Notes: generated from the sequence alone by a model not told the origin. A stretch of DNA of 64,000 nucleotides from a virus (IMGVR_UViG_2802429052_000001:27845-91844), one strand, 5' to 3'. Positions 1 to 30,670 are shown, numbered from the stretch's first letter. A program made the numbers and translations.

Positions 1-1286
1 AGCAGCCGAAGGCGTGGATGCTGCTCGCGCAGGCTGATCACGGGATCTTGCTGACAATGGCGGCGAATCTACTTCGGTTGCAGCTGACCAACATTGACAT
101 CGGCACCCTGTTCAAACTGCTCGACCCGGCCAACTGGAACATTCCCGAGCTGGTCGACACATTCCTCAACATCTGGCAGCAGTCGCAAATCGTCATCGTG
201 CCACGCACGTTCGGCGATTCGGTGGCCCCGCTGTCGCTGGTCGTCGGCAGCATCAAGACATCGATCTTCGACGTGGCCGCGCCGATCATGGAAGACGCAG
301 AGCTGCAATGGGATCTGAGGCGCTGGAAGACCGGCGACCCCGAACCGTGGCCTGGCGCAGGCACCAACTGGCGCAACGGCACCCTGTTCGTCCGCATCGT
401 CGACAAGTCCGGTTTCCGCACCGGCACGTCCATCGGCGGCAACCTGGCTACGGGCCTGACTCGCACAATCGCCGATGTGCTGTCGAACCATGTCGAGGAC
501 AGCTACGACCTGTTTACCGGGGACACGATCGACGAGACCGGCTACCGACTGCCCGGCATCCTCGGCACCGAGGCCGCGCACCCCTACGTGACGTACCGCG
601 ACGGCGACATCACCGGCATTCAAACATCGAACTTCTCACGCTCACCCGGTGGGGCAGGGCGTATCACTGTGGGCGGGCAGTCAATGCCCGGCGTGAACGA
701 ATTGATCAGTGCAGCAATTCAATACGGTGGCGATGTTCTGGGGGACAACATCTCGGCCACTATCAGTCTTGCCGTCGGTTTCAACATCAGCGTCGGCTCA
801 CTCGGTGGCGCGATCGATTCGTTTCTCAACCCGATCTACCGCGATTCGATCCTGGCGTTCATGTCGGTACCGCTGCTGTTGCGGACAAGTCGGCAGGGCT
901 GGGGTCACTACCTGGAGACCACGAGTACGAATGTCACACAGGCATTTACTGCGGCCTCGACGATGGATCTGCGCCGACGTCGGCGCGAGACCGACCCCGA
1001 CACCTCGTTCACGCTGACCGTCGCCAACGCTGCGCCGTGGCTGATCGGCGACAACGGCTTTGGGCACTGGTGGAACGGAGATCGGGTCGGCGGCACCAGC
1101 AAGTACCTCATGCCGCGGGTATTCGTGCGCCGCTGCCGCTCCCTGGACATCACCTGGGGTCAGGGCAGAGCGCTGGCAGTCGAGGGCACCTTCGGGGATA
1201 CCCGCCAGGAGAAGGACGCGATCGAGCGCATGGCCGAACTGATGAGCCGCACCATGAGCGGCCTGCAACAGATAGGACTGTGGTGA
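1..1286 (+). CDS. Minor tail protein (5' end outside window)
   Basis: ORF open to window start; weak similarity to C-terminal part of the 568-aa minor tail protein of prophage B; upstream of other tail genes. Confidence 0.55.
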   Translation, partial: QPKAWMLLAQADHGILLTMAANLLRLQLTNIDIGTLFKLLDPANWNIPELVDTFLNIWQQSQIVIVPRTFGDSVAPLSLVVGSIKTSIFDVAAPIMEDAELQWDLRRWKTGDPEPWPGAGTNWRNGTLFVRIVDKSGFRTGTSIGGNLATGLTRTIADVLSNHVEDSYDLFTGDTIDETGYRLPGILGTEAAHPYVTYRDGDITGIQTSNFSRSPGGAGRITVGGQSMPGVNELISAAIQYGGDVLGDNISATISLAVGFNISVGSLGGAIDSFLNPIYRDSILAFMSVPLLLRTSRQGWGHYLETTSTNVTQAFTAASTMDLRRRRRETDPDTSFTLTVANAAPWLIGDNGFGHWWNGDRVGGTSKYLMPRVFVRRCRSLDITWGQGRALAVEGTFGDTRQEKDAIERMAELMSRTMSGLQQIGLW

Positions 1287-1699
1287 CAGAGGGTATCTCT
1301 CCGGAAGAGGCAAAAGCACTAGCCGACAAGGTTGTCGAATCGGAGTTCATTCCGAAGAAGATCCCGGCCGCTGATGACATCGACGGCCAGGTCAAGGCCC
1401 TGGGCGGTGCGCTGGCCTCGGCGCTGCTGACTGCGACCGAGTTGCCGTTGACGGTGATGCAGCCAGTTGTCGCCGACCTGGCAACTCAGCTTGTCGCCCT
1501 GGGCATCCGGCAGACCGAGCACATTGACCCCGCTGCGGTGCACGCGCCGGCCTGGATCACCGATGGGGTACGCCAGGAATCGATCAAGCTGCCCGAGCAG
1601 CCCCAACACACCGAAGCCGATCCGCATGTGGAGATGACCGCCACCGCGCCCAAGTGCCCCAAGCGCATACCCAAGGCAGCCCGGGCGGTGCGGCGGTGA
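1283..1699 (+). CDS. Hypothetical protein (138 aa), GTG start
   Basis: GTG start overlapping upstream stop (GTGA); the downstream gene's GTG also overlaps its stop (GTGA). Confidence 0.4.
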   Translation: MTEGISPEEAKALADKVVESEFIPKKIPAADDIDGQVKALGGALASALLTATELPLTVMQPVVADLATQLVALGIRQTEHIDPAAVHAPAWITDGVRQESIKLPEQPQHTEADPHVEMTATAPKCPKRIPKAARAVRR

Positions 1700-4380
1700 C
1701 CACCCCCGGCGGTGTGTCCAACCTTCCCGTTGGCGCACTGACAGTCGAGACTCTGGCTGAGAAGCTGCAGAACTTGACGCCCGCGGCGATGCGCAACCGC
1801 GCCGCCGAACGCATGCCCGGCACGTTCCACGGCTCCACCGGCGGTGACCCGCTGCAAGACCTGACGCCGTTCGGGATCTTGACGAAGCTGTTCGCCGGAT
1901 TCAATTCCCACGTCGCCAACGCTGACCCGAACGATATTCAGGGCCCCGAAGACCTGCCCGGACTGCTGCTGGACTTCATCGAAAGCCTGCCCGTGGTCGG
2001 CCAGTTCGTTGGTTTGGCCGAGGCGATCATGGGCACCTACGACGGCGACGACGAGACACTGTTGGCGATTCAACAGATCTTCATGCCGATACGCCGGCTG
2101 CTCCAGCTCGCCTCTGGACAGGACGTTGGCTGGCCCACCCTAGAAGAGATTGAAGAGGGTTGGGGCAACCTGTTCGCGGCTATCGCCAAGGCGGTCAGCC
2201 AGTTCTTCAAGGGCGTCATCCCCGCGGCGTGGGTTGCTGATGTCCAGAAGGATCTGACTGACGGTGCCGGCGGATTCACCGACCCGTCGGTGGTCGACGA
2301 TAACCCGGACTGGCACTACGACGCCGCGCAGAACGGGCACCTGTCGGGCAAGTCGATCTACGTCAACGCCGACGGCCATCTGTACGCGATCAGCGTCAAA
2401 GACCCCTTCGAGGTGGCGCCGGGCCAGACCGTCGATATGGCGGCCTCGGCGATGTGGCAGGGCCTCACGGCCACGGCGGGGTCCAATCCGATTCGGCTGT
2501 GCATCACGCCCTTCGGCCCGGACGGCACCAAGCTGCCCGATATCGTCATCAAGCAGATACAGCCGATGGCCGCGGACTCGGCATGGGTGCGCGCCAGCCT
2601 GACTGGCTCATGGACCGTCCCGGCCGATGGTTCGATCAAGTGGGCAACGGTGACATTGGTGGTCACCGAGGGCGCCTCGGGTGGGCCGGTCCATTTCTCG
2701 AACGTCGCCTCGGCGATGTCAAACCTGGGACCGGTGCTGGGTAAGTTCAGATCGTTCTTCGATGCCATTGGTGGACAAGCCAACTCGGGTATCGTGCAGT
2801 TCGAGCAGCGATTCGCCGCGATCACCGCCGACGGCAAAATCACCGCCTCGGAACTGTTGGGCCTAATCGGCCTAGGCAACATTCCGACGTTGCCCCAGGT
2901 CAAGATCCAAGACCTGCAAACCACGTTCAATCAGTTGGGTGACATCTACAACGGCTTGGTGGTAACGCCGATCAACGGATTCGTCGCGGCCATCGCAACG
3001 TGGTTCGGAACCAACAAGGACAAGACCCAGAAACTCACCAGCGGCGGAACCCTGTCCGTCGGAGATGTCGTCGGCAATTTCGATATGAGCCGGGTCGACG
3101 ATCTTGTCGACAACCTCGGCAACATCCTGTCCGGGGTCAAGGACGGCGCCGACGGCGTAGGCACCGGCACCACGGGCGCCATCGGGGACCGCATCAACCA
3201 AGCCAAGGACTCGCTACTGGCGCTACTGGGCCTGTCTCAAGATGCGCTCAAAAGCGCTATCGCCGCACAGACCACGTTGCAAGAGCAGGAGACCGAGCAG
3301 AACACCGGCGACGGCAACAGCTACAGCTTCGTGTTCTCCGGGGCCGACGGTGCCGCACTGAATACGACCGATTGGACCACCGGCCCCACGCCCGGCGATA
3401 TCACCATTCGGGGCGACTCGGGATATGCGGGCGTCAAGAACGGCAACCCTGACGGTTACTTTTTCGCCAGCCCCAACTACACCTATGCCAGCGACGGACA
3501 GTCGGCCTCATTCGTGCTCGGCAACACCCAAAACGGAAACTACTACTCCGGGGTGTTCATTCGCTGCAACGCCGATCGCACCACGGGCGCCTACTGCCTG
3601 GCCAAAGAGGGCGAGGTCCGCGTCGGCAAGTTCACCCGCTCAGGTACCAGCTGGACGTTCGCTACACCGATGACCTTTCAAGGCGGGCTCTCGTCAGTCA
3701 AACAGGGTGCCCGTATCGAAATTCGTTGCAGCGGCAACAACTTCTTTGTTCGCGTGAACGGCAAGCCGGCCACCTCCGCGACCGATGTCGCGGGCACCAT
3801 CGCCGCCGGGCCGGACTATCGATACGCCATGTTCTGTGTTCAGCGCGCAACGTCGTGGTTCACCTACGACTCCTACCGCATCGCAGCATTCGCCATGTCC
3901 GATTACAGCCCCTCGGGAGGTAGTGCCACCTTGTCGAACGCGTGGAGCCTAACCCGCTCGTCCACTTCAGGTTTCACCTACACCGACCCCATCACCTCAG
4001 CGGGCCAGCTACCGGCGTCGTTCTTCACCTTCACCGACTACGCCAATGGCGCCACCATCACCGACCTTGGCCGAGGCGCGGTGACCGTGGACCAAGCCGG
4101 GCTCTACAAGCTGGCGACCACCTGCCGCCCATACTCGGCCAAGGGGCCGGTCACCCCGCATTGGTGCCTGTACCGCAACGACGTTCAGGTCACCGGAGCC
4201 ATCGGCCCCGGCGCCGAATTCGAGATCCTGCTCAACGCGGGCGACAAGATCCAACCCGCCCTGATCGTCGTCGATTACGACGTGCGCTCAAACGGCTCCA
4301 CCGGCTCGGAAACCGTTGTCTCGCGCACCATCACCCAAGTATTCGGCGTGGCCTCCTTCACCGGCCGAAAACTCATCTAA
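1696..4380 (+). CDS. Minor tail protein, large (about 894 aa), likely receptor-binding
   Basis: About 80% identity over the N-terminal two-thirds to B 23894..26341; C-terminal beta-rich domain divergent; GTG start with GTGA overlap. Confidence 0.75.
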   Translation: MTTPGGVSNLPVGALTVETLAEKLQNLTPAAMRNRAAERMPGTFHGSTGGDPLQDLTPFGILTKLFAGFNSHVANADPNDIQGPEDLPGLLLDFIESLPVVGQFVGLAEAIMGTYDGDDETLLAIQQIFMPIRRLLQLASGQDVGWPTLEEIEEGWGNLFAAIAKAVSQFFKGVIPAAWVADVQKDLTDGAGGFTDPSVVDDNPDWHYDAAQNGHLSGKSIYVNADGHLYAISVKDPFEVAPGQTVDMAASAMWQGLTATAGSNPIRLCITPFGPDGTKLPDIVIKQIQPMAADSAWVRASLTGSWTVPADGSIKWATVTLVVTEGASGGPVHFSNVASAMSNLGPVLGKFRSFFDAIGGQANSGIVQFEQRFAAITADGKITASELLGLIGLGNIPTLPQVKIQDLQTTFNQLGDIYNGLVVTPINGFVAAIATWFGTNKDKTQKLTSGGTLSVGDVVGNFDMSRVDDLVDNLGNILSGVKDGADGVGTGTTGAIGDRINQAKDSLLALLGLSQDALKSAIAAQTTLQEQETEQNTGDGNSYSFVFSGADGAALNTTDWTTGPTPGDITIRGDSGYAGVKNGNPDGYFFASPNYTYASDGQSASFVLGNTQNGNYYSGVFIRCNADRTTGAYCLAKEGEVRVGKFTRSGTSWTFATPMTFQGGLSSVKQGARIEIRCSGNNFFVRVNGKPATSATDVAGTIAAGPDYRYAMFCVQRATSWFTYDSYRIAAFAMSDYSPSGGSATLSNAWSLTRSSTSGFTYTDPITSAGQLPASFFTFTDYANGATITDLGRGAVTVDQAGLYKLATTCRPYSAKGPVTPHWCLYRNDVQVTGAIGPGAEFEILLNAGDKIQPALIVVDYDVRSNGSTGSETVVSRTITQVFGVASFTGRKLI

Positions 4381-4402
4381 CACACCACAGGAGAACTCAC
4401 CC

Positions 4403-4708
4403 ATGACCACGCCCGAAGCACCAGCCACCGTCGATGACAACGAGGATCTGACAGACCCCCCGGCCCCCTCGCCCACCCCGGATCCACCCGCGCCAGAACT
4501 GCCGCAAGAACCGCCCACGCCACCCCAGGCGGCGCAGATCCCCGAGCCGAGCACCACGTTCACCATGCCCGAGCTGCCCGGAATCACCTTCGCTGTCGTG
4601 CGTGGCGGCTTGGACATCGACGGCAAGCTCAACCCGTCTTGGATTCAGATCACCGGCACTGACAGCGAGGGTGCGATAGTGTCCCGCATAGGATTCGCCG
4701 GGCCCTAA
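4403..4708 (+). CDS. Small proline-rich tail-associated protein
   Basis: AGGAG RBS upstream of ATG; PxP-rich N-terminus; within tail gene block. Confidence 0.5.
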   Translation: MTTPEAPATVDDNEDLTDPPAPSPTPDPPAPELPQEPPTPPQAAQIPEPSTTFTMPELPGITFAVVRGGLDIDGKLNPSWIQITGTDSEGAIVSRIGFAGP

Positions 4709-4709
4709 C

Positions 4710-5864
4710 GTGCCCTGGTCCACCAGCCCGACCGTTGCCGCCACGCGGTCGGGCGGTAAGTGGTCGGTCAATCCGGCCGTGCCAGCTCCCGCACCAAACG
4801 GCCGGTGGCACGCCATCATCGGGATCGACGCCGCACTGGCAGTGATGTGTGTCGGCGAGGTCGAGCTGACCGCCATGCAAGCCATGGGCGTGGTCTTGTC
4901 GGTACACCTTGACCGCGAGCTGGCGTTGGCCGCTGTGTACCAGCTGGCCGCGCAACGCTCGATCCTCATCACTCGCAACCTTGCGCTACAGGCCACATTC
5001 CAACAAGACCTCGCGCTGGCCGTCACCATGGAACGGGCCCTGTTCCTGGCCAAGGTCATCGGGTGCGGCCTCGCACAGGCCGTGAGCATGACCGGCACCC
5101 TCGACCTGGCCCGGGTAGCCCCGATCGACCTGACGCGCAACCTCACGGCGCCGCGCTCGATCAGTTTCGACAAACTGCTACCCGTCGACCTGACACGCAC
5201 CGTCTCGATGTCCTCGGCGCTGGCGATCGAGCGCGTCGCCAAGATCGACGCCGCACTGACGGTAACCATGACGCGGGCATGCAGCCTCGGTTATCCGCCA
5301 GGCGGGCTGCCCACGCTGGCCACCTACACCACGGCCGGGGCGTTCACTCACAACATCGTGCGCAACTGCGACTTCATGGACTGCGTTGGGTGCGGTGCCG
5401 GAGGCGGCGGGGGTGGCGGTGACGGCGGCCTGGGCAGCACCGGACAGGGCGGCCGTAAAGGCGCATGGAACGCGCGCACCGTGGCCCGCAACATCGACAT
5501 CCCCGGCTCCGCATTGACCCTGACCGGCATGGTGGGCGCGCCCGGAGCCGCGGGGGCCAAGGAGAAAGACGGCGGCGCCGGCGGTGACACCACATTCCTG
5601 ATCAACGGAATCACCACCACGTGTGCCGGCGGCGCCGGCGGTAAAGGCGCCTACGCCGGCAACGGACTCAACCAGCCCGGCGAGGCTGCGGGCAACACCA
5701 CCCTCAACGGCCAGACCTACACCGGCGGCGCACAGGCAGGCACCAACACCAACGGCAACTCACCCGGAGGTGGCGGCGGCCCCGGCTCGGGCGGCGCCTT
5801 CGGAATCGCCAACCCCGGACGCCTCGGCGGAACGGGCATAGCACATATCCGGTCCTACCAATAG
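4710..5864 (+). CDS. Minor tail protein with glycine-rich (collagen-like) C-terminus
   Basis: N-terminus MPWST matches B 22839..23894; poly-Gly tracts GGGGGGGDGG. Confidence 0.65.
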   Translation: MPWSTSPTVAATRSGGKWSVNPAVPAPAPNGRWHAIIGIDAALAVMCVGEVELTAMQAMGVVLSVHLDRELALAAVYQLAAQRSILITRNLALQATFQQDLALAVTMERALFLAKVIGCGLAQAVSMTGTLDLARVAPIDLTRNLTAPRSISFDKLLPVDLTRTVSMSSALAIERVAKIDAALTVTMTRACSLGYPPGGLPTLATYTTAGAFTHNIVRNCDFMDCVGCGAGGGGGGGDGGLGSTGQGGRKGAWNARTVARNIDIPGSALTLTGMVGAPGAAGAKEKDGGAGGDTTFLINGITTTCAGGAGGKGAYAGNGLNQPGEAAGNTTLNGQTYTGGAQAGTNTNGNSPGGGGGPGSGGAFGIANPGRLGGTGIAHIRSYQ

Positions 5865-5878
5865 AAGGGAAAACCATT

Positions 5879-6262
5879 ATGGCATGGGGAATTTCGTCCT
5901 ACCTGGCGAACAAACTGCTCGATCACATCTGCCGCAACGTCGCCTACACACCACCGGCAACCGTGTACGCCAAGATGCACACCGGCGATCCCGGCGCGAA
6001 CGGAACGGCTAACGCATCCTCGGTGGCCACCCGCTACGCCTGCGCGTTCAACGCGGCGGCAGCCGGGTCGATCAGCCAATCCAACACCCCCGAGCACACT
6101 CTCGGCGCCACGGAAACCATTGCCGGGGTGTCATTCTGGGATCACCCCACGGCCGGGAACTTCTTGTGGTCATCGCAGGCCGCCGCCTCCAAGTCCGGTG
6201 CCAGCGGCGACATCATCCGCATCAACACCGACACCCTCGCACTCGGCCCGCTGGCGGCATGA
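5879..6262 (+). CDS. Minor tail protein (127 aa)
   Basis: RBS-like GAAGGGAAAA upstream; loosely similar to B 21979..22341; last tail gene before lysis cassette. Confidence 0.5.
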   Translation: MAWGISSYLANKLLDHICRNVAYTPPATVYAKMHTGDPGANGTANASSVATRYACAFNAAAAGSISQSNTPEHTLGATETIAGVSFWDHPTAGNFLWSSQAAASKSGASGDIIRINTDTLALGPLAA

Positions 6263-6405
6263 TGCGCCGCCAGCTGCTCATCTATCCGGCCCTCTACCTC
6301 GCCGTGTTCGCCGTCGCGTTCCGCCTCGGCTGGTGGGCATCCGACCAGCTCTCTTCCTACGCACAAGAAATCGACCCACGCATCGAAAAGGAGTACACCC
6401 GATGA
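6259..6405 (+). CDS. Small membrane protein (48 aa) translationally coupled to lysin A
   Basis: ATGA overlaps at both ends; one TM helix; close homolog at B 21833..21976. Confidence 0.5.
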   Translation: MMRRQLLIYPALYLAVFAVAFRLGWWASDQLSSYAQEIDPRIEKEYTR

Positions 6406-8323: not shown

Positions 8324-8498
8324 GCCTGGCATAGCTGGACTAGCCCGGACGGTCGAGCACGTGAAGTAGTCCACCCAAAACCCCAGCACAACGGCAGTGG
8401 TGGACGAAATAGCCGAAAACATACCGGGATCTATACCGGGCTACTCATGACCTGCACTGTTTCCGGTTTTGATCACGAAAATGAGAGGACAACCAACC

Positions 8499-8711
8499 AT
8501 GCCCAACGACAACGTACGCCTGGCAATCCACGCTGCGAGTCTGCTCGTCTTCATTATCGCGGTGGCAGTGCTCGTCGCTCTCGATAAGCTCCAGAGTGGC
8601 GATGGCCTGACGTGGATCGTCACCGGCGCCGGTCTCATCACAGCCGGGCTCTCCACAACCAAGATGATTCAGGACCGGCGCGGCAACGGGCCGGACGGGT
8701 CGGCTCAGTGA
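8499..8711 (+). CDS. Holin-like membrane protein (2 TM)
   Basis: Two hydrophobic helices, charged C-terminus, GAGGA RBS, position after lysins. Confidence 0.5.
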   Translation: MPNDNVRLAIHAASLLVFIIAVAVLVALDKLQSGDGLTWIVTGAGLITAGLSTTKMIQDRRGNGPDGSAQ

Positions 8712-9070: not shown

Positions 9071-9082
9071 CCGACCGGAAAC

Positions 9083-9117: not shown

Positions 9118-9130
9118 CGCCGTCTATCGG

Positions 9131-11892: not shown

Positions 11893-11902
11893 GGCTGGAG
11901 CC

Positions 11903-12920: not shown

Positions 12921-12943
12921 GCGCGGATCGTACTGCGATTTAC

Positions 12944-22838: not shown

Positions 22839-23894
22839 TTACTGGTATGCGCGGCACCAGGCACCGCCTGTGCCGCCGATGCCGCCGGGGCCGCCGAAGT
22901 TGGCACCGCCCGCACCGGCACCGCCGGGCGCGTAGCCCGTTCCGCCATCAGAGGTTTGCGTGGCGCCGCCCGGGTAGGTCACGCCGTTGTAGGTCTTGTC
23001 GCCCGGGCCGGGGCCGTCGTTGGCGTTGATGCCGGTGGGATGCTGCGGGCCACCAGCGCCGCCAGCAGCGGACAGGCCCGCCCATCCGTCGCCGATAGCG
23101 GTGGTTGCCGCACCTGGGCCGCCCGCGGTTCCGGCGAAACCGCCGCTACCTTTTGCGCCGCCTGCGCCGATGACGAATGTCAGGGTTGTTGTGGTCCAGG
23201 GGATGTGGATGCCGCGCTCCAAAGTGGTGGTGGCCCAGGTTCCCGGGCTGCCGGGGAAACCGCCGAGTAGGTAGAACGTGCCCGAGCTCGCACCGCCGCC
23301 GCCAGCGCCGACCAGCGCCAGATCGAGATAGCGGCACCACACCGGGATCGGGACCACGGTCGTGCCGACTGCGGTGATCGCGGTCAGCGCTGCCGGTTGC
23401 GGACTGAACCGGGCGGTGGCGGTATCGGCCCCGATGGCTTGACTGACGCTGGAGGGAAGCCGAACCCGCGACAGCACCGCGATATCGGCGGCCGCGGCGG
23501 CACCGACGGCGGCCAGGCGGGGGAGCATCTGCGCCATCTCGGCGGCCACGGCCGAATCGGTGGCGCGCACACCGGGGCGGGCCGAGTCGGCACCTATCCC
23601 GGCGTCTCGTGCACCCACGCGCAGCTTCGCCTGAGCCAGGTCGGCGCCCCGGCCGGCATCACTGGCGCCCAAGCCCAGTCCTGCGACGGCGAGATCTGCG
23701 CCAACACCCTGATCGATGCCCGTGTGGGCCACCCGCAGCAGACGGGCCAGATCGGCGCCGACTGCCGAGTCCGCGACGGTGACCCGTGGCATCCAGACCC
23801 ACTTGCCCATGGATGGCGGCGAGGGCGGATCGGGATTGGTCGACCACCTACTCGATTGCCCCGAGGGCGCAGACGGATTGGTGGACCAGGGCAT
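22839..23894 (-). CDS. Glycine-rich minor tail protein (collagen-like C-terminus)
   Basis: N-terminus MPWSTNP matches A 4710..5864; G-rich C-terminal half; 1-nt overlap with upstream stop. Confidence 0.65.
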   Translation of the reverse strand: MPWSTNPSAPSGQSSRWSTNPDPPSPPSMGKWVWMPRVTVADSAVGADLARLLRVAHTGIDQGVGADLAVAGLGLGASDAGRGADLAQAKLRVGARDAGIGADSARPGVRATDSAVAAEMAQMLPRLAAVGAAAAADIAVLSRVRLPSSVSQAIGADTATARFSPQPAALTAITAVGTTVVPIPVWCRYLDLALVGAGGGGASSGTFYLLGGFPGSPGTWATTTLERGIHIPWTTTTLTFVIGAGGAKGSGGFAGTAGGPGAATTAIGDGWAGLSAAGGAGGPQHPTGINANDGPGPGDKTYNGVTYPGGATQTSDGGTGYAPGGAGAGGANFGGPGGIGGTGGAWCRAYQ

Positions 23895-26341
23895 CAGACC
23901 GCCTTGATCGCGGCGTACCCCGCGGCACCCCAGCCGCCGGTACCGGCGCTGCCCCCGGTACCACCGCCGCCGCCCGCGCCGCCGCCACCGGGCCCGTTGC
24001 CCGGGGCTCCGTTGGCCGCACCCACCGACGCGCTGGGCGGGGTGTTCTGCCCGCCCTTGAACAGGCGCGCGGAGAACCCAAGATCGCCGGGGCCGTAGCC
24101 CACCGAGTCGCGGTTGTAGAAGCTGCCATAGGCCAGGCGCCCCAGTCGGCCACCAGCGCAACGCAGGATCTCGCTGTTGTCGCTGCCGTTGCGGAACACG
24201 ATGTCGTGCCCCGGCTTGCCGTCGGTCTCCTTGCTGCCGGGCTCGCCGCCAATACCCGTGGGTGAACCCACACGCTCGGACTGCACCGTGATCTGAGTGA
24301 CGGACCCCGGGATGTCGACGCCGCGCTCCAGCCGTAGCGAGTTCCAGGAACCGCCGCCCCCACCCTCGCCGGGCTTGTTCCAGCCGCCGTCACCGCCGCC
24401 GCCCCCACCACCGCCACCGCAGCCCGCCAGGTACAGCACGGTGCTGGCGCTGGGGATGTCGTAGACGGACAGGGGCAGGTTCGCCCCGGTGGATGAGTAC
24501 TCGGTCCATTGATCTGCCAAGTTGGTCGACTCGCCCAGGGCGCCCCATACCGGCGTGAATTCCACGTGCCCGCCCACCAGGGTGGGCAGGGAGGTGTAGC
24601 CGGTGCCGCCGTCCTGGGTGAAGAACAGGGGGATGTTCTGCACGACTTCCAGCACGGTCGGCATGGCCGGTGTGGTGTAGAGGCCCTGCGGGTTGCCGAC
24701 CTGCAGCACACCGATGAACGCGGTATGACCCTTGGGCACCGTCAATCCCGGCGACGGAATTGTCAGAGCTTGCACGCGGCTGGTACCCGATAGCCGTGCC
24801 TTGACGTTCCCGAGGTCGACGGCCTTCTGAATTTGCAGCGACTCATTGATCCGGTACACGCCCACGTAGCACTGCGTCATGCCATTGCCGGTGATGGCGA
24901 ATTTCACGGTGCGATACGTGCGCTCAACACCCGGCGTGATGGGGATGAACACCAGCTTTTGATCGGCCGGTACGAATGTCGACTGTGCATTGATGATGGG
25001 GAACGACACATCGTCGTTGATGCCTGTGGACATCCAGCGAGGGGTCAGTCGTGGCAGATTCACAACATCGGTGGCGTACACCGCGGCCGCGTACGCGTCA
25101 TCGGCCTTCTTCTTGAGGGCAGCGGTCGCAGTGGATACATCGACAGGACCCCTGCCACTAGATCCGTCCCCAAATACCGCATTCCAGAAGTTGTTCCACG
25201 TGTCCTTGAGGTCTTCTCCGATGTCGGTGCTGCCGATCGGGCTGTGCACCTTGGCCGGGGGCAGCTTCGGGATATTGCCCAACCCGAGTAGCCCGATGAT
25301 TTCCTCGGCGGTGATCTTGCCGTCGGCGGTGATCGCGGCGAATCGCTGCTCGAAATCGGCGATGTCCGAATTGGCTTTGCCGCCCAGGGTGTCAAAGAAC
25401 GATCTCCACTTGCCGAGCAGCGGCCCGAGGTTCGACATGACCGAGGTGACGTTGGAGAAGTGGATGCGGCCGGCGGTGGCGCCCTCGGTCACAACCAGGG
25501 TCACTGTCGCGGACTTGACCGATCCGTCGGTCGGCACCGTCCACGAGCCGGTCAGGCTGGCACGTATCCAGGACGAATCGGCGGCCACGGGCTGAATTTT
25601 CTTGATGACGATATCGGGGAGCTTGGTGCCATCGGGGGCAAACGGGGTGATGCACAACCGGATCGGATTGGAACCCGCTGCAGCCGAGACGCCTTGCCAC
25701 ATCGCCGATGCGGCGATGTCCACCGCCTGGCCGGCAGCCACGTTGAACGGGTCTTTGATGCTGATCGCATGCAGCTGGCCATCGGCGTTGAGGTAGATCG
25801 ACTTACCCGACAGGTGCCCGTTCTGGGCGGCATCAAATCGCCAGTACGGGTTGTCCTCGACCATCTTCGGGTCGGTGAATCCGCCAGCACCGCCCAGTAG
25901 GTCATGGGCCACATCAGCCACCCACGACGCCGGTATGACGCCCTTGAAGAACTGGCCCGCCACCTTGGCGATAGCAGTCAGGATCGATTCAGGATGAGCC
26001 AGATCGATGCCAGCCAGGGCGTTGCGGATACCGAGGGCCCATGTCCCTAAATCATTTTCATCGCCGTCCTCGATCCCGGTCAGCAGCTCGACCAGATCGC
26101 CGAGACCAGGTTTGTCTTTGGCCCACTCGCGCAGCTGATCAAACGAACCCACGCCGGGAATGAGGTGCCCCATGACCGCGAGCACCACGCGACCGAGAAA
26201 CTGCTCAATGAACCCCTTGCCGAACTCCTGGAGCTGTTGGGCTGTGAACGGCCGCGTGAGACCGCCGCCCTGCTCGCGGTGCACCGGGGCCGAGGGGACA
26301 TCCCTTGCCCAATCGGGGATCTCGGGCAGGTTGTCGGTCAC
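23894..26341 (-). CDS. Large minor tail protein (about 815 aa) with poly-Gly segment, paralog of A 1696..4380
   Basis: High identity block (NGHLSGKSIY..GKITA) to the A protein; GTG start overlapping upstream stop. Confidence 0.75.
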   Translation of the reverse strand: MTDNLPEIPDWARDVPSAPVHREQGGGLTRPFTAQQLQEFGKGFIEQFLGRVVLAVMGHLIPGVGSFDQLREWAKDKPGLGDLVELLTGIEDGDENDLGTWALGIRNALAGIDLAHPESILTAIAKVAGQFFKGVIPASWVADVAHDLLGGAGGFTDPKMVEDNPYWRFDAAQNGHLSGKSIYLNADGQLHAISIKDPFNVAAGQAVDIAASAMWQGVSAAAGSNPIRLCITPFAPDGTKLPDIVIKKIQPVAADSSWIRASLTGSWTVPTDGSVKSATVTLVVTEGATAGRIHFSNVTSVMSNLGPLLGKWRSFFDTLGGKANSDIADFEQRFAAITADGKITAEEIIGLLGLGNIPKLPPAKVHSPIGSTDIGEDLKDTWNNFWNAVFGDGSSGRGPVDVSTATAALKKKADDAYAAAVYATDVVNLPRLTPRWMSTGINDDVSFPIINAQSTFVPADQKLVFIPITPGVERTYRTVKFAITGNGMTQCYVGVYRINESLQIQKAVDLGNVKARLSGTSRVQALTIPSPGLTVPKGHTAFIGVLQVGNPQGLYTTPAMPTVLEVVQNIPLFFTQDGGTGYTSLPTLVGGHVEFTPVWGALGESTNLADQWTEYSSTGANLPLSVYDIPSASTVLYLAGCGGGGGGGGGDGGWNKPGEGGGGGSWNSLRLERGVDIPGSVTQITVQSERVGSPTGIGGEPGSKETDGKPGHDIVFRNGSDNSEILRCAGGRLGRLAYGSFYNRDSVGYGPGDLGFSARLFKGGQNTPPSASVGAANGAPGNGPGGGGAGGGGGTGGSAGTGGWGAAGYAAIKAV

Positions 26342-27177
26342 AGCGGCCAGGCCTCGATGTTGAAGTGCGACATCGCGGCGGTGGCGATGTACGTCGATGT
26401 GCCGGTTTGGCGCTCGCACCGGATGTGCACGGTGGCCGAGGTGCCCGCGGCAATGGTGTCGTAGTCGGCGGCGGTGCTGCCGGGGCCGATGGGCTTGCCC
26501 GGTGAGAACGCCAGCCGATCAGTCTGGGCGATGCCCACGCAGCGGCCCACGATGTTGCCGTCGGTCTCGCCGTTGAGCCGGGCCAGCAGATTCACGCGCA
26601 CATCGGCGGCTTCGCCAGTAACGACCGTTTGGCCTTGTGCACGGATGCGCCGAGGCCACGGGCGCGCAGGGATGTCGATCGCGGCCATAGTCCCGTTCGC
26701 GTTGCCCGTACCGATGTTCTTGATTTCGCCCGGGTAGAACACCTCGGCAACCTTTTGCGGCACAAGCTCAAAACCGAGTAGGTCGGTTTTGACGGCCGGA
26801 ATCCACCCCGCCTTGGGATTGGTCGACAGGTCCAGCGGATTCCAGCGCGTCGCGCCGTCTTTACCGGTCTTGCCGGTGTGTAGCGCCAGGTGCATTTTCC
26901 ACTTGCCGGGCGTGGTATCGGTTGGGGGAGTGATGAGTTCGAAAAATGCCGAATCGGGTGTCGCGTCTTCCGGCGCCAGCGGGGTCAGGGCGATCCTGGT
27001 GTCGAACTCGGCATGCTTTCCTGGCGGGCCCTGCTCGACCCCGGACACCCCTCCCATGATTCCGCCGTCTTCGCGCAGCAGCACGTGCGCCACCCCGGTG
27101 CCATCGACCGGGACCAGGGTGTAGCCCTGTCCCTGGTAGTAGCGTGCACCGTTGAAATCGACGATAGGCCAAGCCAT
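26338..27177 (-). CDS. Minor tail protein (279 aa)
   Basis: Position in tail block; beta-rich. Confidence 0.55.
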   Translation of the reverse strand: MAWPIVDFNGARYYQGQGYTLVPVDGTGVAHVLLREDGGIMGGVSGVEQGPPGKHAEFDTRIALTPLAPEDATPDSAFFELITPPTDTTPGKWKMHLALHTGKTGKDGATRWNPLDLSTNPKAGWIPAVKTDLLGFELVPQKVAEVFYPGEIKNIGTGNANGTMAAIDIPARPWPRRIRAQGQTVVTGEAADVRVNLLARLNGETDGNIVGRCVGIAQTDRLAFSPGKPIGPGSTAADYDTIAAGTSATVHIRCERQTGTSTYIATAAMSHFNIEAWPL

Positions 27178-27192: not shown

Positions 27193-28899
27193 TTAGGACT
27201 GGGGGGCCAGTGTGATGACGTTGATGGCTTCAAATGCGCCAGTGATGAAGCGTTGAATCCTGCCCAAGGGGGCCTCGTCGCGGCGGCCGTCACCGAGCTG
27301 CACCAGGGTGGTCTGCTCGGTGGGGGTGATGCGCCACATGGTGTTCTCGATGTAGTCGGTGATCATCTTGGTTCGGCGGTGATACACCAGCGACATCAAG
27401 CCGCCCTCGAAAATGTCTCGGCCCAAGGCATATTGGTCACCGTTTCGGAAAGTGACCTGCGCCGTGGTAGCACCCTGGGCATCGAAAATCGCGTTAATGA
27501 ACGCGAACATGGTTTCGATGTTGTACGGGGCGCTGGCGGTCGGGTAGAACCGCTCGATGGCCGGATGAAAGGGGCCCACCTCGTCGCGGACCTGGTACAC
27601 CTGGACCATCTGGAACGCCAGGAAGCTGTTGTTGAGAAATCCCGAGAGCAGATCCGACGGGATGCCGGAGAACCCAACCACGATCATCAACGAATCGATC
27701 AACCACGCAAACGTGGCATTCATAAGATCGTTCAACCACTTTGGAGAACGACCGCCGATGATGTGTTGCCAGCCCTCGGGGGTGTGGTCGGCGATTTCGC
27801 AGCTGATGATGTTGGAGTCCTCGCCCTCTTCGGGGGCGACGACGTAGGCGTAGGGCTGCTCGAAATCGACACCGAGCTTGGGTGCGTAGAACACTCCGCT
27901 CATGCCGGGTACCTGCTGAATGACTGGCTTGAAGATGTCGCCGAGTGATCCGCCGAGGTCGATGACTGTCTTGATCACCGAATCAGCAACGGTTTTGGTG
28001 GGTCCCGAGATTTGTTGGCGGTCCCGGGTCGAAAACACGTAGGTGGGCGAATCGAGGTTGGCCCACTTGTCCGGTTGCGGGTCACCGGGGCGCCACAGGT
28101 CCATGCGGGTGTCCACACCGTAGGCGCGGGTGACATCCTTGATGACCGTTCCGCAGGTTTCCATGCGAACGGTCTTGGCGCACATGGGCGATGTGTCCAG
28201 GAATGGGTCGGTGCGCTGCACATAGGTGGGGGTGCGCAGCATCTTGCCGAAGGTCTGCACCGAGAGCCCGTCACGTTTGAGGGCCTGCAGGATCGTGCCC
28301 ATCCATGCCCGGATGTCGCCGTTGAGTGACAGGCCGTTGTTGACGAACTCCAGCCACCCGGACTGAATGCGCAACGCGCACTCGGCGACCATGTTCTCCA
28401 CGCAGGTCTGCAGCGCCCAGATGAAGATCGCGTGCGAAATGGGCTGGGCGGCAAGGGGAAGCCACCACGTCGGCCAGATCACGTAGTAGTTCAGGATGTC
28501 CCAAATGCCGCGCATCTCGACATTGCCTGTCCACGCGTCCTTTTCGTAGCGGTAGCGGTGAACCTTGGTGTAGAAGTTCTGTCGGCTGCCGGCGGTCTCC
28601 ATCTCGACCCCGACCAGGGTGTTGCGGCAGTCCATGAACATCTGGATCAGCGGCGAGCTGCCCTTGAGCATCAGCTTTCCGGTGGGGCAGTCGTTGCGCG
28701 GCCGGGCGCCCGAACCCTCCATCAGGTCCGAGCCCACCGAGGCCATTGGGGTCCACATCTTGTCGCAGACGGTGAACCGATAGCTGGTGTCGACCTTCGA
28801 GTTTTTCTCGGTCAGGGCGCGGGCGGTGGCGGCGATCCGCGCGATATCGCCCGAGCGCTTGGCCGCCTCCCAGCGCTGCTCATCGGATATGGGCATCAC
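27193..28899 (-). CDS. Minor tail protein (568 aa)
   Basis: Large protein between tape measure-proximal tail genes; homolog of truncated A ORF 1..1286. Confidence 0.6.
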   Translation of the reverse strand: MMPISDEQRWEAAKRSGDIARIAATARALTEKNSKVDTSYRFTVCDKMWTPMASVGSDLMEGSGARPRNDCPTGKLMLKGSSPLIQMFMDCRNTLVGVEMETAGSRQNFYTKVHRYRYEKDAWTGNVEMRGIWDILNYYVIWPTWWLPLAAQPISHAIFIWALQTCVENMVAECALRIQSGWLEFVNNGLSLNGDIRAWMGTILQALKRDGLSVQTFGKMLRTPTYVQRTDPFLDTSPMCAKTVRMETCGTVIKDVTRAYGVDTRMDLWRPGDPQPDKWANLDSPTYVFSTRDRQQISGPTKTVADSVIKTVIDLGGSLGDIFKPVIQQVPGMSGVFYAPKLGVDFEQPYAYVVAPEEGEDSNIISCEIADHTPEGWQHIIGGRSPKWLNDLMNATFAWLIDSLMIVVGFSGIPSDLLSGFLNNSFLAFQMVQVYQVRDEVGPFHPAIERFYPTASAPYNIETMFAFINAIFDAQGATTAQVTFRNGDQYALGRDIFEGGLMSLVYHRRTKMITDYIENTMWRITPTEQTTLVQLGDGRRDEAPLGRIQRFITGAFEAINVITLAPQS

Positions 28900-28939: not shown

Positions 28940-30670
28940 TTAGAGCGGGTATCTCCGTCGCGGCGTGCCCGAGGCGATGATCTTGGAGTCGGCGTTGCCG
29001 CCCTCGATCGAGACCTTCACGAAATACGGCTGCGCGGGATTGCCCGGTGATTTCGGTGGTATCGCCGCGTTCTTGGAAAAGCGGCCCTTGAGGTACTTGT
29101 ACAGCGGGCCCTGCGGCGGGGTGATGCCGAACTGCGACTTGATCTGATCGGCGAACGCCGTACCGTTCATGCCCGCAAAGCTCATGAACTTCTCGATCGC
29201 CTCCTGGAACAAATCGAGTTCCTGCGGTGAGGGCGGCACCGAGGTCAGGTCTTGCACCAAGGTGGTGTGTACGCGCGGATCGGTGCGCAAAAACACCACC
29301 TGATTGGGTAGCAGCGGACCGAATTCGACATATTCGTCCGAGCCGGGCCCGTCGTAGATCTTGACCTTGGTGAACGGCCCGAATAGCACGTAGTCGTCGT
29401 ACATGTCCTGATCACCGATGTTGATGCGCTTGAGGAACCCGGTTTGCGCCACGGCAGCGTTATCGCCCGCGGAAAGTTTGCGGATAGAGGACGGTGTAGC
29501 CTGGCTGATCACCGCACCGGCGGCGAACATGCCGTTGCCGACGCCCCGATGCGCTGCCCCCAGGGGCGAGCCCGTGCCGGCTTCGGTGACCGACAAGATC
29601 TCCATGTCGTTGCGCAGCACGCGGAACGTGCGCGGGTGATCCTCGGTGCCGCACACCAGCGTGAACTTCTCGCCCGGCAGCGGCCCGATGGGGATGGCCA
29701 GCGGCCAGCTGCGCAAGGTGGTCTCAACGAAGTTCACCGTGTAGTACACGCGCAGGTATCCAGCGCCGTACTCGACGAACACCCCGTCGCCAGCCCAGCT
29801 GCCGTCAGGATTGCGGTTCATGCGCGCGCCCAGGATGTTTCGGCCCGAGTCGGGCACCGACCACTCCTGAAATCCCCCGTGCACCTGGGAGACGACCTGG
29901 TTATCGGTATCGGTGTCGAAATCGGGCCAGGGCCCGTTGATGACCCGGCGCCACTGGGTGCCAAACCCGTGTTCGGGGTCGTCCCACCAACGCATTTGGT
30001 CGTTGTAGGAGGTGCAGAACCCGCCGCCGGGGCCGCTGTAGCGCTGCGGAATCGCGCCGAGATCCTTGGTTTGGCGATGGTCGACCGCGAAGGTGTCGGT
30101 CATCGCGTCGTAGGTGAACGCGAACGAGTCCGCGTGGTCGAACGACTTCCAGGTGCCGGTGTCGGCCTGTAGCCGCAGCGTGGCTTTCTGCGAGGTGCCC
30201 TTGCGCATAGCCGAAACCGGATCGGGTTGCCCGCCTTGGAACCAGCGCACGTCGGCCCACCAGTACCCGGCATCGTGATCGAAAAAGTCCAGCCGGGAAC
30301 ACTTGATGGCGTCCAGCGAATCGATCAGATGCCGATAGACCCGGCGCGTGCGCGCGGCGTTGCGGCCCCGGCACTTGACCGTGAGCTTGACCTCGACCGG
30401 ATCCAAAAACGCGTCGATATGGTGAACGCCATCCTCGGTCGCACCCTTCTGGGTGACGTGCTTCCACGGCGCGATCAGGCCTTCGAGGTCGATCAAATGC
30501 ACGGCTTCTGGCGCCGTGTACGGGTCGGGAATCGCGTACCCGCCGATCATGAACATCTCGACCGACCCGTCAAAGGCGGTCAGGCGCATCATGGGCTTTT
30601 CGCCGTTGACGAGGTGATACCAGCCATGGGGTGTGACGGGGTTGGCCGGATAACGGATCGTCACGGTCAC
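28940..30670 (-). CDS. Minor tail protein (576 aa), distal tail/baseplate-like
   Basis: First large gene after tape measure, 4-nt overlap with it. Confidence 0.6.
   Translation of the reverse strand: MTVTIRYPANPVTPHGWYHLVNGEKPMMRLTAFDGSVEMFMIGGYAIPDPYTAPEAVHLIDLEGLIAPWKHVTQKGATEDGVHHIDAFLDPVEVKLTVKCRGRNAARTRRVYRHLIDSLDAIKCSRLDFFDHDAGYWWADVRWFQGGQPDPVSAMRKGTSQKATLRLQADTGTWKSFDHADSFAFTYDAMTDTFAVDHRQTKDLGAIPQRYSGPGGGFCTSYNDQMRWWDDPEHGFGTQWRRVINGPWPDFDTDTDNQVVSQVHGGFQEWSVPDSGRNILGARMNRNPDGSWAGDGVFVEYGAGYLRVYYTVNFVETTLRSWPLAIPIGPLPGEKFTLVCGTEDHPRTFRVLRNDMEILSVTEAGTGSPLGAAHRGVGNGMFAAGAVISQATPSSIRKLSAGDNAAVAQTGFLKRINIGDQDMYDDYVLFGPFTKVKIYDGPGSDEYVEFGPLLPNQVVFLRTDPRVHTTLVQDLTSVPPSPQELDLFQEAIEKFMSFAGMNGTAFADQIKSQFGITPPQGPLYKYLKGRFSKNAAIPPKSPGNPAQPYFVKVSIEGGNADSKIIASGTPRRRYPL

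What the first reader, a model, noticed from the sequence alone, without database searches (positions are those of the whole stretch)
1696..4380. Paralogous large minor tail proteins with conserved N-terminal two-thirds and swapped C-terminal domains
A 1696..4380 and B 23894..26341 share long near-identical stretches (for example AQNGHLSGKSIY, SNPIRLCITPF and GKITA...LGLGNIP). They differ in the C-terminal third:
- A ends in a beta-rich Cys-containing domain;
- B carries a poly-Gly tract and different terminal beta-domains.

This is a typical host-range determinant swap. Two co-resident prophages with different receptor-binding tips would matter for superinfection and phage therapy.
Basis: seen in the sequence. 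Interest (0 to 1): 0.5.

Follow-up and report, generated by a model that had tools for sequence, protein, structure and literature searches.

The report
Mosaic central tail fibre proteins, two prophages
Two neighbouring prophages in a Mycobacterium abscessus genome each encode a tail-tip fibre protein; the two share one sugar-binding-type module in the middle and differ at both ends, which is the ordinary cut-and-paste mosaicism already known for phage tail fibres.

Summary
The similarity is real, but its extent was mis-described. A (1696-4380, +, 894 aa) and B (23894-26341, -, 815 aa) share one internal block: A162-403 / B123-364. It is 726 nt, ungapped, 79% identical in DNA and 76% in protein, with a weaker extension to A107-414 (BLASTP E 7e-130). 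That is about 30% of each protein, not the "N-terminal two-thirds". The first 120-160 residues are unrelated as well.

Both proteins are the central fibre protein (CFP) of a siphophage tail tip. Each sits after the tape measure, distal tail and hub genes and is homologous to Douge gp20 (PDB 8ZDO/P/Q).
- **Shared block:** the gp20-type CBM-like domain plus the proximal stem.
- **N-terminal arm:** it co-varies with the hub protein.
- **Distal parts:** no detectable homology. A carries two beta-rich domains; B carries a beta domain plus a polyglycine-rich domain (PF21722).

Public relatives reassort the three segments. prophiGD05-3 gp64, for example, has a B-type arm, the shared block and an A-type distal part.

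B is essentially the published prophi52-1 gp60, and A is close to prophi62-3 gp52. A role of the distal parts in host range is plausible by analogy with Muddy gp24 but was not tested here.

Verdict: an ordinary, already known kind of feature. The head-to-head junction of the two prophages is more unusual.

The parts
1696..4380 (+). Protein A: central fibre protein (CFP) of prophage 1 (MabN-like), 894 aa
   Evidence: ORF and translation. 95.7% nt identity to the prophi62-3 region that includes gp52 'minor tail protein'. phrog_746, E 8.5e-125. Douge gp20 (8ZDO): E 1e-11 with the single sequence, 9e-50 with a profile. Foldseek to 8zdq_v, E 2.8e-17.
1696..2178 (+). A, N-terminal arm (aa 1-161): predicted helical, specific to the tail chassis; presumed anchor to the hub protein
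   Evidence: No similarity to B's arm. Shared with only 6 of 84 representative proteins. Douge gp20 N-arm 1-164 anchors the fibre to the hub (PMC13033339).
2179..2904 (+). A, shared module (aa 162-403): CBM-like beta-sandwich (about aa 200-342) plus proximal helical stem ending at LGLGNIP
   Evidence: blastn 79.5% to 25975-25250. 76% aa identity. dS 0.73, dN 0.13. AF2 pLDDT 80-94 over residues 200-340. Foldseek hits to Douge gp20 and to CBM16, CBM4 and CBM22.
2905..3300 (+). A, distal stem (aa 404-535), predicted helical
   Evidence: A405-448 matches Douge gp20 stem 419-461 (single-target E 4e-11). Helices predicted at low confidence. A second mosaic breakpoint lies at about aa 445-460 relative to phiGD21-1 gp23.
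3301..3915 (+). A, distal beta-rich domain 1 (aa 536-740), contains Cys
   Evidence: phrog_4978 and phrog_2804. Found in 7 other representative proteins. Only weak matches: Douge gp20 CTD 823-864 (single-target E 5e-4) and TP901-1 BPP (E 0.01). Fold not established (pLDDT about 55-60).
3916..4380 (+). A, terminal beta-rich domain 2 (aa 741-894)
   Evidence: 97-100% aa identity to phiGD21-1 gp23 and P3MA gp22. Only one other representative cluster carries it. Low-confidence model.
23894..26341 (-). Protein B: central fibre protein of prophage 2 (MabC; equals prophi52-1 gp60), 815 aa
   Evidence: ORF and translation. 99.9% nt identity to prophi52-1. phrog_346, E 1e-133. Profile hit to Douge gp20, E 1.6e-27. 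Foldseek to 8zdq_v (E 3e-20) and to Bxb1 tail tip 9d93_Pa (E 3.5e-14).
25976..26341 (-). B, N-terminal arm (aa 1-122)
   Evidence: 82% identical to the arm of prophiGD05-3 gp64, whose hub protein is 84% identical to prophage 2's. No similarity to A's arm.
25250..25975 (-). B, shared module (aa 123-364)
   Evidence: AF2 pLDDT 80-92 over residues 160-300.
24506..25249 (-). B, helical linker (aa 365-430) plus beta domain (aa 431-612)
   Evidence: AF2: helices 374-428 at low confidence; strands 462-555 with pLDDT 61-81. Shared with 7 other representative proteins. Only a weak match to the Douge gp20 tip domain 563-625 (single-target E 7e-4). No PDB sequence hit.
23894..24505 (-). B, C-terminal polyglycine-rich domain (aa 613-815)
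   Evidence: Pfam PF21722 Gly_rich_2, 29.9 bits against a cut-off of 24.3. AF2 pLDDT 70-88. Foldseek to Bxb1 tail-tip chains 9d93_Qa/Qb and to the cyanophage Pam3 fibre, 22-24% identity.
3..1286 (+). Hub protein (BHP/Tal) of prophage 1, 5' end outside the window
   Evidence: PF14594 Sipho_Gp37, E 3e-37. 98.6% identical to prophi62-3 gp50. 26% identical to Douge gp18.
1283..1699 (+). Small ORF between hub and fibre genes (138 aa), syntenic with Douge gp19
   Evidence: No family hit.
4710..5864 (+). Separate minor tail protein of prophage 1 with a polyglycine-rich domain (384 aa)
   Evidence: PF21722, E 1.5e-21 over residues 207-383. 39% identity to B646-764. Syntenic with the Gly-rich Douge gp21.
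22839..23894 (-). Separate minor tail protein of prophage 2 with a polyglycine-rich domain (351 aa)
   Evidence: PF21722, E 4.4e-23 over residues 174-350. Equals prophi52-1 gp61.
26338..27177 (-). Minor tail protein (279 aa) between hub and fibre genes of prophage 2
   Evidence: Equals prophi52-1 gp59. No Pfam hit.
27193..28899 (-). Hub protein (BHP/Tal) of prophage 2
   Evidence: PF14594, E 1.9e-7. 84% identical to prophiGD05-3 gp62 and about 24% to prophage 1's hub.
28940..30670 (-). Distal tail protein of prophage 2
   Evidence: PF23918 DUF7257, E 1.7e-58; weak match to Sipho_tail. Equals prophi52-1 gp57.

Best explanation
A and B are the central fibre proteins (CFPs, called 'tail spike' in the Hatfull-lab papers) of two otherwise unrelated siphophage prophages of M. 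abscessus. Each protein is built from three segments that exchange independently.

1. **N-terminal arm.** A helical arm that anchors the fibre trimer to its own phage's hub protein. It therefore differs between the two tail chassis.
2. **Conserved module.** A CBM-like beta-sandwich plus the proximal stem. It probably binds a mycobacterial surface glycan. Because it is conserved at the DNA level, it also offers a substrate for homologous recombination.
3. **Distal cassette.** Stem, beta domains and, in B, a fused polyglycine-rich domain. It probably makes the distal, specificity-determining contacts with the envelope.

The A/B similarity exists because the MabN-like, MabM and MabC lineages acquired the same version of module 2 by horizontal exchange. 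The exchange is old (dS about 0.7), so it did not happen between these two copies in this host.

Shown here: the homology, the domain boundaries, the synteny, the mosaic breakpoints and the existence of natural chimeras.

Inferred from solved or tested relatives: trimer formation, anchoring to the hub, glycan binding, and a role in host range.
For: **Context.** Prophage 2 is 99.9% identical to prophi52-1 (MabC). Prophage 1 is 95.7% identical to prophi62-3 (MabN) over window 1-6405. In both, the gene order is tape measure, distal tail protein, hub (PF14594), small ORF(s), CFP, Gly-rich protein, as in Douge gp16-gp21.

**Family.**
- Douge gp20: phmmer E 1e-11; profiles E 9e-50 (A-type) and 1.6e-27 (B-type).
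- Foldseek top hits are 8zdq_v and 8zdp_v for both models, followed by CBM16, CBM4 and CBM22.
- Douge domain functions come from PMC13033339: the N-arm anchors to the hub, and the NTD binds LAM/AM and alpha-glucan fragments.

**Mosaicism.**
- Only four short stretches of nt similarity exist between the two prophages.
- Identity drops sharply at A~162 and A~403.
- prophiGD05-3 gp64 combines a B-type arm (82%), the module, and an A-type distal part (73% over A107-893).
- Its genome matches prophage 2 from 25267 to about 41998 and prophage 1 from 2179 to 8328.
- The arm co-varies with the hub protein: 84% against 24%.
- A460-894 is 93-100% identical to MabB/HB phages, whose module is only about 40% identical (dS 0.17).
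- Other combinations occur: P0130 (A-type arm, B-type distal part), P0048 (B-type arm, A-type distal part) and P0133 (A arm and module, another distal part).

**Module spread.** It is present in 293 mycobacteriophage records, mostly at <60% identity. The Douge NTD is found in 1,943 actinophage records.

**Host range.** Muddy gp24 carries the module (E 1.7e-25). Its host-range and TPP-independence substitutions G487W, T608A and E680K lie distal to the module (PMC8263002, PMC10465359).

**Polyglycine-rich domain.** PF21722 plus Foldseek hits to Bxb1 9d93_Q and the Pam3 fibre. The literature places such domains on or near the CFP (PMC13252515; 10.64898/2026.07.24.740622).
Against: - No experiment on these two proteins exists. 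Trimerisation, hub anchoring, glycan binding and receptor specificity are all inferred from Douge, Bxb1, Muddy and BPs.
- AF2 models were confident only for the CBM-like domain in both proteins, and for B's beta domain and polyglycine-rich domain. A's distal domains are unresolved (pLDDT <60), so a shared fold between the distal parts cannot be excluded.
- Weak matches (single-target E 5e-4 and 7e-4) hint that A's domain 1 and B's beta domain each resemble a different part of the Douge gp20 distal region.
- That the module serves as a recombination substrate is inferred from breakpoint positions. With 79% identity and a longest exact run of 38 nt, recombination between these two particular copies would be inefficient.
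Confidence: 0.8

Rival explanations
1. Vertical descent with uneven rates. A and B descend from one ancestral fibre gene without exchange. The middle module is held by strong purifying selection, while both ends diverged beyond recognition.
For: The module is under purifying selection (dN/dS about 0.18). It belongs to a very old and widespread family. The hub proteins of the two prophages are distantly related, at 24% identity.
Against: - Similarity changes from about 80% nt to background within 20-40 codons at both borders.
- A-B module identity (76%) far exceeds that of most family members (25-45%), while the rest of the two genomes is unalignable.
- Segment combinations are incongruent across relatives.
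Confidence: 0.08
2. True paralogy. One gene was duplicated within this bacterial genome, or copied between the two resident prophages in this host, and the ends were then replaced.
For: The two genes lie 21 kb apart in one chromosome, in adjacent prophages.
Against: - The shared block is only 79% identical, with dS 0.73.
- B is essentially identical to the prophi52-1 gene from another strain, and the A region is 95.7% identical to the prophi62-3 locus from another strain. Both forms therefore predate co-residence.
Confidence: 0.02
3. Recombination switch. The two modules lie in inverted orientation in two prophages joined head to head. Recombination between them would invert 2905-25249 and reciprocally swap the distal fibre cassette, lysis genes, toxin cassette and integrase between the two prophages. 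On this reading the arrangement generates tip-swapped phages at a useful frequency.
For: The geometry holds: inverted 726-nt repeats and a head-to-head junction. prophiGD05-3 has exactly the architecture expected from a crossover in the module between a MabC-like and a prophage-1-like genome.
Against: - Identity is only 79% and the longest exact run is 38 nt.
- No invertase or dedicated crossover site was identified or searched for.
- All 9 contigs carrying the exact protein A were reported as similar places, and the one read through is identical to the window.
- GD05-3 is only 80-90% identical to either prophage, so it is not derived from these parents.
Confidence: 0.04

Closest known systems
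Mycobacteriophage Douge gp20, central fibre protein (PDB 8ZDO/8ZDP/8ZDQ; PMC13033339)
   Same: - Same gene position: after tape measure, distal tail protein, hub and a small ORF.
- Same order of parts: N-arm, CBM-like NTD, helical stem, distal beta domains.
- Significant sequence homology across the distal N-arm, NTD and stem (profile E 9e-50 and 1.6e-27).
- Top Foldseek hit for both models.
   Different: - About 15% identity overall.
- The N-arms are not alignable with A or B.
- Distal domains match only weakly.
- B ends in a fused polyglycine-rich domain that gp20 lacks; Douge has the separate Gly-rich gp21.
- The host is M. smegmatis.
Mycobacteriophage Bxb1 tail tip (PDB 9D93: chain Pa of 610 aa, and chains Qa/Qb of 230 aa)
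   Same: - B's model matches chain Pa (E 3.5e-14).
- B's C-terminal domain matches chains Qa/Qb (23-24% identity, TM about 0.45 on the target).
- PMC13252515 states that in Bxb1 the polyglycine-rich domains are associated with the CFP.
   Different: - In Bxb1 the Gly-rich unit is a separate 230-aa chain. In B it is fused to the fibre, and prophage 2 carries a separate one as well.
- The Bxb1 paper itself was not available to read.
Muddy gp24 and BPs gp22 'tail spike' proteins (PMC8263002, PMC10465359)
   Same: - Syntenic position.
- Muddy gp24 carries the shared module at residues 133-326 (E 1.7e-25), and its residues 343-682 align weakly with A469-814.
- BPs gp22 residues 376-506 align with B's polyglycine-rich domain (36% identity, E 1e-8).
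- Single substitutions in these proteins change host range and remove the dependence on trehalose polyphleates.
   Different: - Low identity (25-36%) over partial regions.
- The family profile did not detect the module in BPs gp22.
- Nothing equivalent has been tested for A or B.
prophiGD05-3 gp64 (cluster MabM, MW584185)
   Same: A natural chimera of the two types in this window: B-type arm (82%), the shared module (about 80-86% to either) and an A-type distal part.
   Different: It is a third, diverged lineage (dS 0.7-0.9 in the module), not a recombinant of these two copies. It integrates at attB-11 (PMC8092301).
Classical tail-fibre mosaicism and invertible fibre segments of coliphages (P2/Mu/P1/lambda; from my own knowledge, not checked here)
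   Same: Conserved proximal parts of the fibre joined to exchangeable distal receptor-binding parts. Exchange occurs across unrelated phages.
   Different: Here the extreme N-terminus is also exchangeable and tracks the hub protein. No dedicated invertase system was identified.

Membership tests
Mycobacteriophage central fibre protein (Douge gp20 type) | Gene lies downstream of tape measure, distal tail protein and hub (Sipho_Gp37-type) genes, usually after a small ORF | tested here: met
   Annotated relatives. Pfam hits on neighbouring genes. Douge gene order.
Mycobacteriophage central fibre protein (Douge gp20 type) | CBM-like beta-sandwich NTD homologous to gp20 165-321, starting at about residue 120-200 | tested here: met
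   A177-344 matches gp20 158-322. Profile E 9e-50 and 1.6e-27. Confident AF2 domain and Foldseek hits to gp20 and CBM16/4/22.
Mycobacteriophage central fibre protein (Douge gp20 type) | Helical stem following the NTD | tested here: inconclusive
   A405-448 matches gp20 419-461 (E 4e-11). Helices are predicted in both proteins, but at pLDDT <50. Monomer models cannot show a trimeric coiled coil.
Mycobacteriophage central fibre protein (Douge gp20 type) | N-arm anchors a homotrimer to the fibre-attachment domain of the hub protein | not testable with these tools
   Indirect support only: arm identity tracks hub identity (B against GD05-3: 82% and 84%; A against B: no hit and 24%).
Mycobacteriophage central fibre protein (Douge gp20 type) | NTD and distal domains bind mycobacterial surface glycans | not testable with these tools
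   Shown for Douge, and for Corndog CFP domains, in PMC13033339 and PMC13252515. Not shown for A or B.
Polyglycine-rich domain (Pfam PF21722 Gly_rich_2) | Score above the Pfam gathering threshold | tested here: met
   B626-814: 29.9 bits against 24.3. Window 4710-5864: 77.9 bits. Window 22839-23894: 82.9 bits. A has no such domain.
Polyglycine-rich domain (Pfam PF21722 Gly_rich_2) | Fold similar to solved polyglycine-rich domains (Bxb1 tail-tip chain Q, Pam3 fibre) | tested here: met
   Foldseek hits to 9d93_Qa/Qb, 7yfw_a and 7ypx_A: E 7.5e-6 to 2.7e-4, 22-24% identity, target TM 0.43-0.50. The region has pLDDT 70-88.
Paralogues produced by duplication within this genome | Divergence of the copies consistent with duplication in this lineage, and shared flanks | tested here: not met
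   dS 0.73 in the block. No flank similarity. Each gene has a near-identical counterpart in a prophage from another strain.
Invertible fibre-gene switch (Mu G / P1 C type) | Site-specific invertase with short inverted crossover sites flanking alternative 3' gene segments | not tested
   Only the geometry was examined (inverted 726-nt homologous blocks). No search for an invertase was made. The genes seen between the blocks include two tyrosine integrases.

The most novel reading that the evidence does not exclude
The two prophages are joined head to head and carry the shared fibre module in inverted orientation. A single homologous crossover within the module would invert about 22 kb. It would yield two complete reciprocal chimeras: each tail chassis would gain the other phage's distal fibre cassette, lysis genes, toxin-immunity cassette and integrase. 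If this occurs at a measurable rate in lysogens, the paired prophages would act as a built-in generator of host-range variants. prophiGD05-3-type phages would be the natural outcome of such events.
Probability: 0.05. Interest if true: 0.55.

Novelty: already known. Interest (0 to 1): 0.2.

Why it matters
The finding is a clean, well-delimited example of three-part modularity in a mycobacteriophage tail-tip fibre: a chassis-specific arm, a conserved glycan-binding module, and an exchangeable distal cassette. The breakpoints at about A162, A403 and A445-460 are natural splice points. Natural chimeras such as prophiGD05-3 gp64 show that they are tolerated. They could therefore guide engineering of M. 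abscessus phages with altered host range, which is a practical need in phage therapy. Biologically it adds nothing unexpected: both genes are deposited, mosaic tail genes are the rule in these phages, and the family has solved structures.

Tried and rejected
- **Remote homology of the distal parts.** hhalign of the A-type and B-type C-terminal alignments gave probability 0.4%. The two beta-domain alignments A3 and A4 also gave 0.4%. No homology was detected.
- **AF2 model of full-length A.** With 37 sequences, only the CBM-like domain was confident. The distal domains had pLDDT <60, so their fold could not be assigned. The Foldseek hits of that model speak only for the CBM-like domain.
- **Profile searches against PDB sequences.** A domain 1 gave only a borderline match to the lactococcal TP901-1 BPP (E 0.01). 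B's beta domain gave nothing.
- **Pfam.** Nothing significant for A.
- **Homologue search with B's distal part.** Only 12 homologues were returned, probably because Gly-rich words swamped the candidate list.
- **Clustering of distal parts.** Single-linkage clustering among 86 module-bearing proteins collapsed into one group and was uninformative. It was replaced by per-segment searches.
- **Exact-pattern scan for the prophage junction.** The scan of genome contigs found nothing. That collection holds one genome per species. The junction was confirmed instead through contigs encoding the exact protein A.
- **Bxb1 structure paper (PMC12124961).** Not held in the library.
- **Rejected readings:** a frameshift or assembly artefact as the cause of the different C-termini (both ORFs are intact and match deposited genes), and duplication within this genome.
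Full report
**1. Observation**

Both ORFs exist as stated. A runs 1696-4380 on the plus strand (GTG start, 894 aa). B runs 26341-23894 on the minus strand (GTG start, 815 aa). BLASTP gives a single significant segment, A107-414 against B83-385, at 64% identity and E 7e-130. Every other alignment is noise.

At the DNA level the similarity is one ungapped block, 2179-2904 against 25975-25250. It is 726 nt long and 79.2% identical. Of the 151 differences, 92 fall at third codon positions, and the longest exact run is 38 nt. In protein terms this block is A162-403 / B123-364, at 76% identity.

The quoted motifs are all present, as are the poly-Gly tracts of B and the Cys residues in A's distal half. 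The claim of a conserved "N-terminal two-thirds" is wrong:
- The block covers 27-30% of each protein, or 34-37% with the weak extension.
- The first 161 residues of A and the first 122 of B are unrelated.

**2. Context**

The window is M. abscessus DNA carrying two prophages.
- **Prophage 2:** window positions 18000-42000 are 99.9% identical to prophi52-1 (cluster MabC, attB-13). The match continues to the end of that record at window 14205.
- **Prophage 1:** window positions 1-6405 are 95.7% identical to prophi62-3 (cluster MabN, attB-13) (PMC8092301).

A corresponds to prophi62-3 gp52 and B to prophi52-1 gp60. Both are deposited as "minor tail protein".

Apart from the block, the two prophages share only three stretches of DNA:
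- their integrases, at 70%;
- a 139-nt stretch in front of lysin A, at 85%;
- 125 nt of Gly-rich coding sequence.

**3. What the proteins are**

In both prophages the gene follows the tape measure, distal tail protein, hub protein (PF14594 Sipho_Gp37) and one small or medium ORF. It is followed by a minor tail protein with a glycine-rich domain. This is the order of Douge gp16-gp21.

The sequence and fold evidence agree:
- A matches the Douge central fibre protein gp20 (8ZDO/P/Q) at E 1e-11.
- Profiles of the A-type and B-type families match gp20 at E 9e-50 and 1.6e-27, over gp20 residues 82-521 and 93-462.
- AF2 models are confident for a beta-sandwich at A~200-340 and B~160-300.
- Foldseek puts Douge gp20 first for both models. 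CBM16, CBM4 and CBM22 follow for both, and for B the Bxb1 tail-tip chain 9d93_Pa as well.

The Douge paper (PMC13033339) defines gp20 as follows:
- N-arm, residues 1-164, which anchors the trimer to the hub;
- NTD, residues 165-321, CBM-like, shown to bind LAM/AM and alpha-glucan fragments;
- stem, residues 322-484;
- tip domain and CTD.

The A/B block therefore corresponds to the last turn of the arm, the NTD and the proximal stem.

**4. The mosaic**

Sliding identity on a four-way alignment shows sharp borders.

- **prophiGD05-3 gp64 (MabM).** It is B-like in the arm (82%), similar to both A and B in the block, and A-like from the end of the block onwards. Its genome matches prophage 2 from 25267 to about 41998 and prophage 1 from 2179 to 8328.
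- **Arm and hub.** The arm tracks the hub protein. B and GD05-3 have hubs 84% identical and arms 82% identical. A and B have hubs 24% identical and arms with no similarity.
- **phiGD21-1 gp23 and P3MA gp22 (MabB/HB).** They are 93-100% identical to A from residue ~460 to the end (dS 0.17), but only about 40% identical in the block.
- **Other combinations among 210 collected relatives**: P0130 has an A-type arm with a B-type distal part. P0048 has a B-type arm with an A-type distal part. P0133 has A's arm and block with a different distal part. P0121 has B's distal part at 90-95% with a 41-43% block.

The block family itself is widespread:
- 84 representative clusters, typically at residues ~95-340 of proteins of 600-1200 aa;
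- 293 mycobacteriophage records, of which only the MabN, MabM and MabC groups exceed 60% identity;
- the Douge NTD in 1,943 actinophage records.

With dS 0.73 and dN 0.13 between A and B, the shared version of the block is an old exchange held under purifying selection. It is not a recent event between these two copies.

**5. The distal parts**

No homology was detectable between them.

- **B.** It has a low-confidence helical linker, a beta domain at 431-612 (pLDDT 61-81), and a polyglycine-rich domain at 613-815. The last scores above the PF21722 threshold, has pLDDT 70-88, and matches Bxb1 9d93_Qa/Qb and the Pam3 fibre by Foldseek.
- **A.** It has a longer stem, whose residues 405-448 match gp20 419-461, followed by two beta-rich domains whose folds I could not establish.

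Weak single-target matches link A's domain 1 to the Douge CTD and B's beta domain to the Douge tip domain (E 5e-4 and 7e-4). These are leads only.

Polyglycine-rich domains also occur as separate proteins in both prophages, at 4710-5864 and 22839-23894. The poly-Gly feature is therefore not what distinguishes the two phages. What differs is its fusion to the fibre in B. The literature proposes lipid or host binding for such domains (PMC13252515; 10.64898/2026.07.24.740622).

**6. Likely mechanism**

By homology to Douge and Bxb1, the fibre is a trimer held on the hub by its arms. The CBM-like module and the distal domains contact envelope glycans and lipids, and the fibre is released before genome ejection (PMC13033339, PMC13252515).

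Two relatives tie the family to host range:
- Muddy gp24 belongs to the same module family (E 1.7e-25). Its host-range and TPP-independence substitutions at residues 487, 608 and 680 lie distal to the module (PMC8263002, PMC10465359).
- BPs gp22 aligns with B's polyglycine-rich domain and also carries host-range substitutions.

So the distal cassettes of A and B are reasonable candidates for specificity determinants. The shared module probably gives both phages a common glycan-binding activity. All of this is inference for A and B.

**7. Comparison and novelty**

These are members of a structurally characterised family. Both genes are already deposited and annotated, and mosaic tail genes are a textbook property of mycobacteriophages. 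The stated extent, the term "paralogous" and the uniqueness of the poly-Gly feature are not. I rate the finding as already known and of low interest. The delimited breakpoints have some practical value for fibre engineering.

**8. Other observations**

The two prophages abut head to head. Their integrase-proximal ends meet at a near-palindrome centred on 14215/14216, with no host DNA between them. The same arrangement is present, base for base, in GCA_900136975.1, and exact protein A occurs on 9 contigs. The published tandem prophages of M. abscessus (strain T36; MabN plus MabB at attB-2) are described as sequential integrations, the second into attR of the first, with the junction named attR-a/attL-b (PMC9934374). 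That implies the same orientation, so this inverted arrangement looks different and is unexplained.

Because the fibre modules are also inverted relative to each other, one crossover between them would reciprocally swap the right arms of the two prophages. I consider this improbable as a regular event, and I did not test it.

Noticed in passing
window 14132-14299 (centre 14215/14216); integrases at 13177-14091 (-) and about 14342-15232 (+): The two prophages are joined head to head at their integrase-proximal ends by a near-palindrome (GGTTCATACTC AC GAGTATGAACC; arms of 32 nt at 78% and 41 nt at 83%), with no host DNA between them. Both relatives use attB-13. The tandem prophages published for strain T36 are described as sequential integrations into attR of the first, which implies the same orientation (PMC9934374). 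The junction is identical in GCA_900136975.1 (L007). The left end of prophage 1 lies outside the window, so how this arose is unknown.
   Followed up: partly
window 1-14204: Prophage 1 is a patchwork of known clusters. Positions 1-6405 resemble prophi62-3 (MabN, 95.7%). Positions 2179-8328 resemble prophiGD05-3 (MabM, 90%). The toxin-immunity cassette at 9131-12264 resembles MabC prophages such as prophiGD57-1 (95.6%). The integrase end at 12200-14204 is only 72-79% identical to the MabN and MabO ends.
   Followed up: partly
window 3075-4380 (A residues ~460-894) and downstream to 6405: A's distal half and the genes after it are nearly identical to MabB/HB phages (phiGD21-1, P3MA): 93-100% aa identity, dS 0.17. 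This exchange is far more recent than the A/B module sharing. In another assembly (GCA_900136995.1, L008) the contig ends about 60 nt after A's stop codon. The cause was not examined.
   Followed up: partly
window 6267-6405 (+) and 21833-21971 (-): A 139-nt stretch, 85% identical between the two prophages, covers the small ORF of about 48 aa immediately upstream of lysin A. It is one of only four stretches of DNA similarity between them.
   Followed up: no
window 5879-6262 (+): A 127-aa protein downstream of the Gly-rich tail protein matches Pfam PF23140 (podophage GP4 fibre I protein gp80) at E 3e-36. It is annotated only as hypothetical in the related prophages.
   Followed up: no
window 9874-11892 (-) and 16144-17952 (+): Each prophage carries its own, different polymorphic toxin cassette next to its integrase. 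In prophage 1 it is a 672-aa protein with a weak Tox-REase-5 hit; in prophage 2 it is the prophi52-1 gp72 homologue. The two cassettes face each other across the junction.
   Followed up: no
A residues 607-694 (window about 3514-3777): A profile of A's distal domain 1 gives a borderline match (E 0.01) to the N-terminal part of the receptor-binding protein BPP of lactococcal phage TP901-1. It is too weak to interpret.
   Followed up: no
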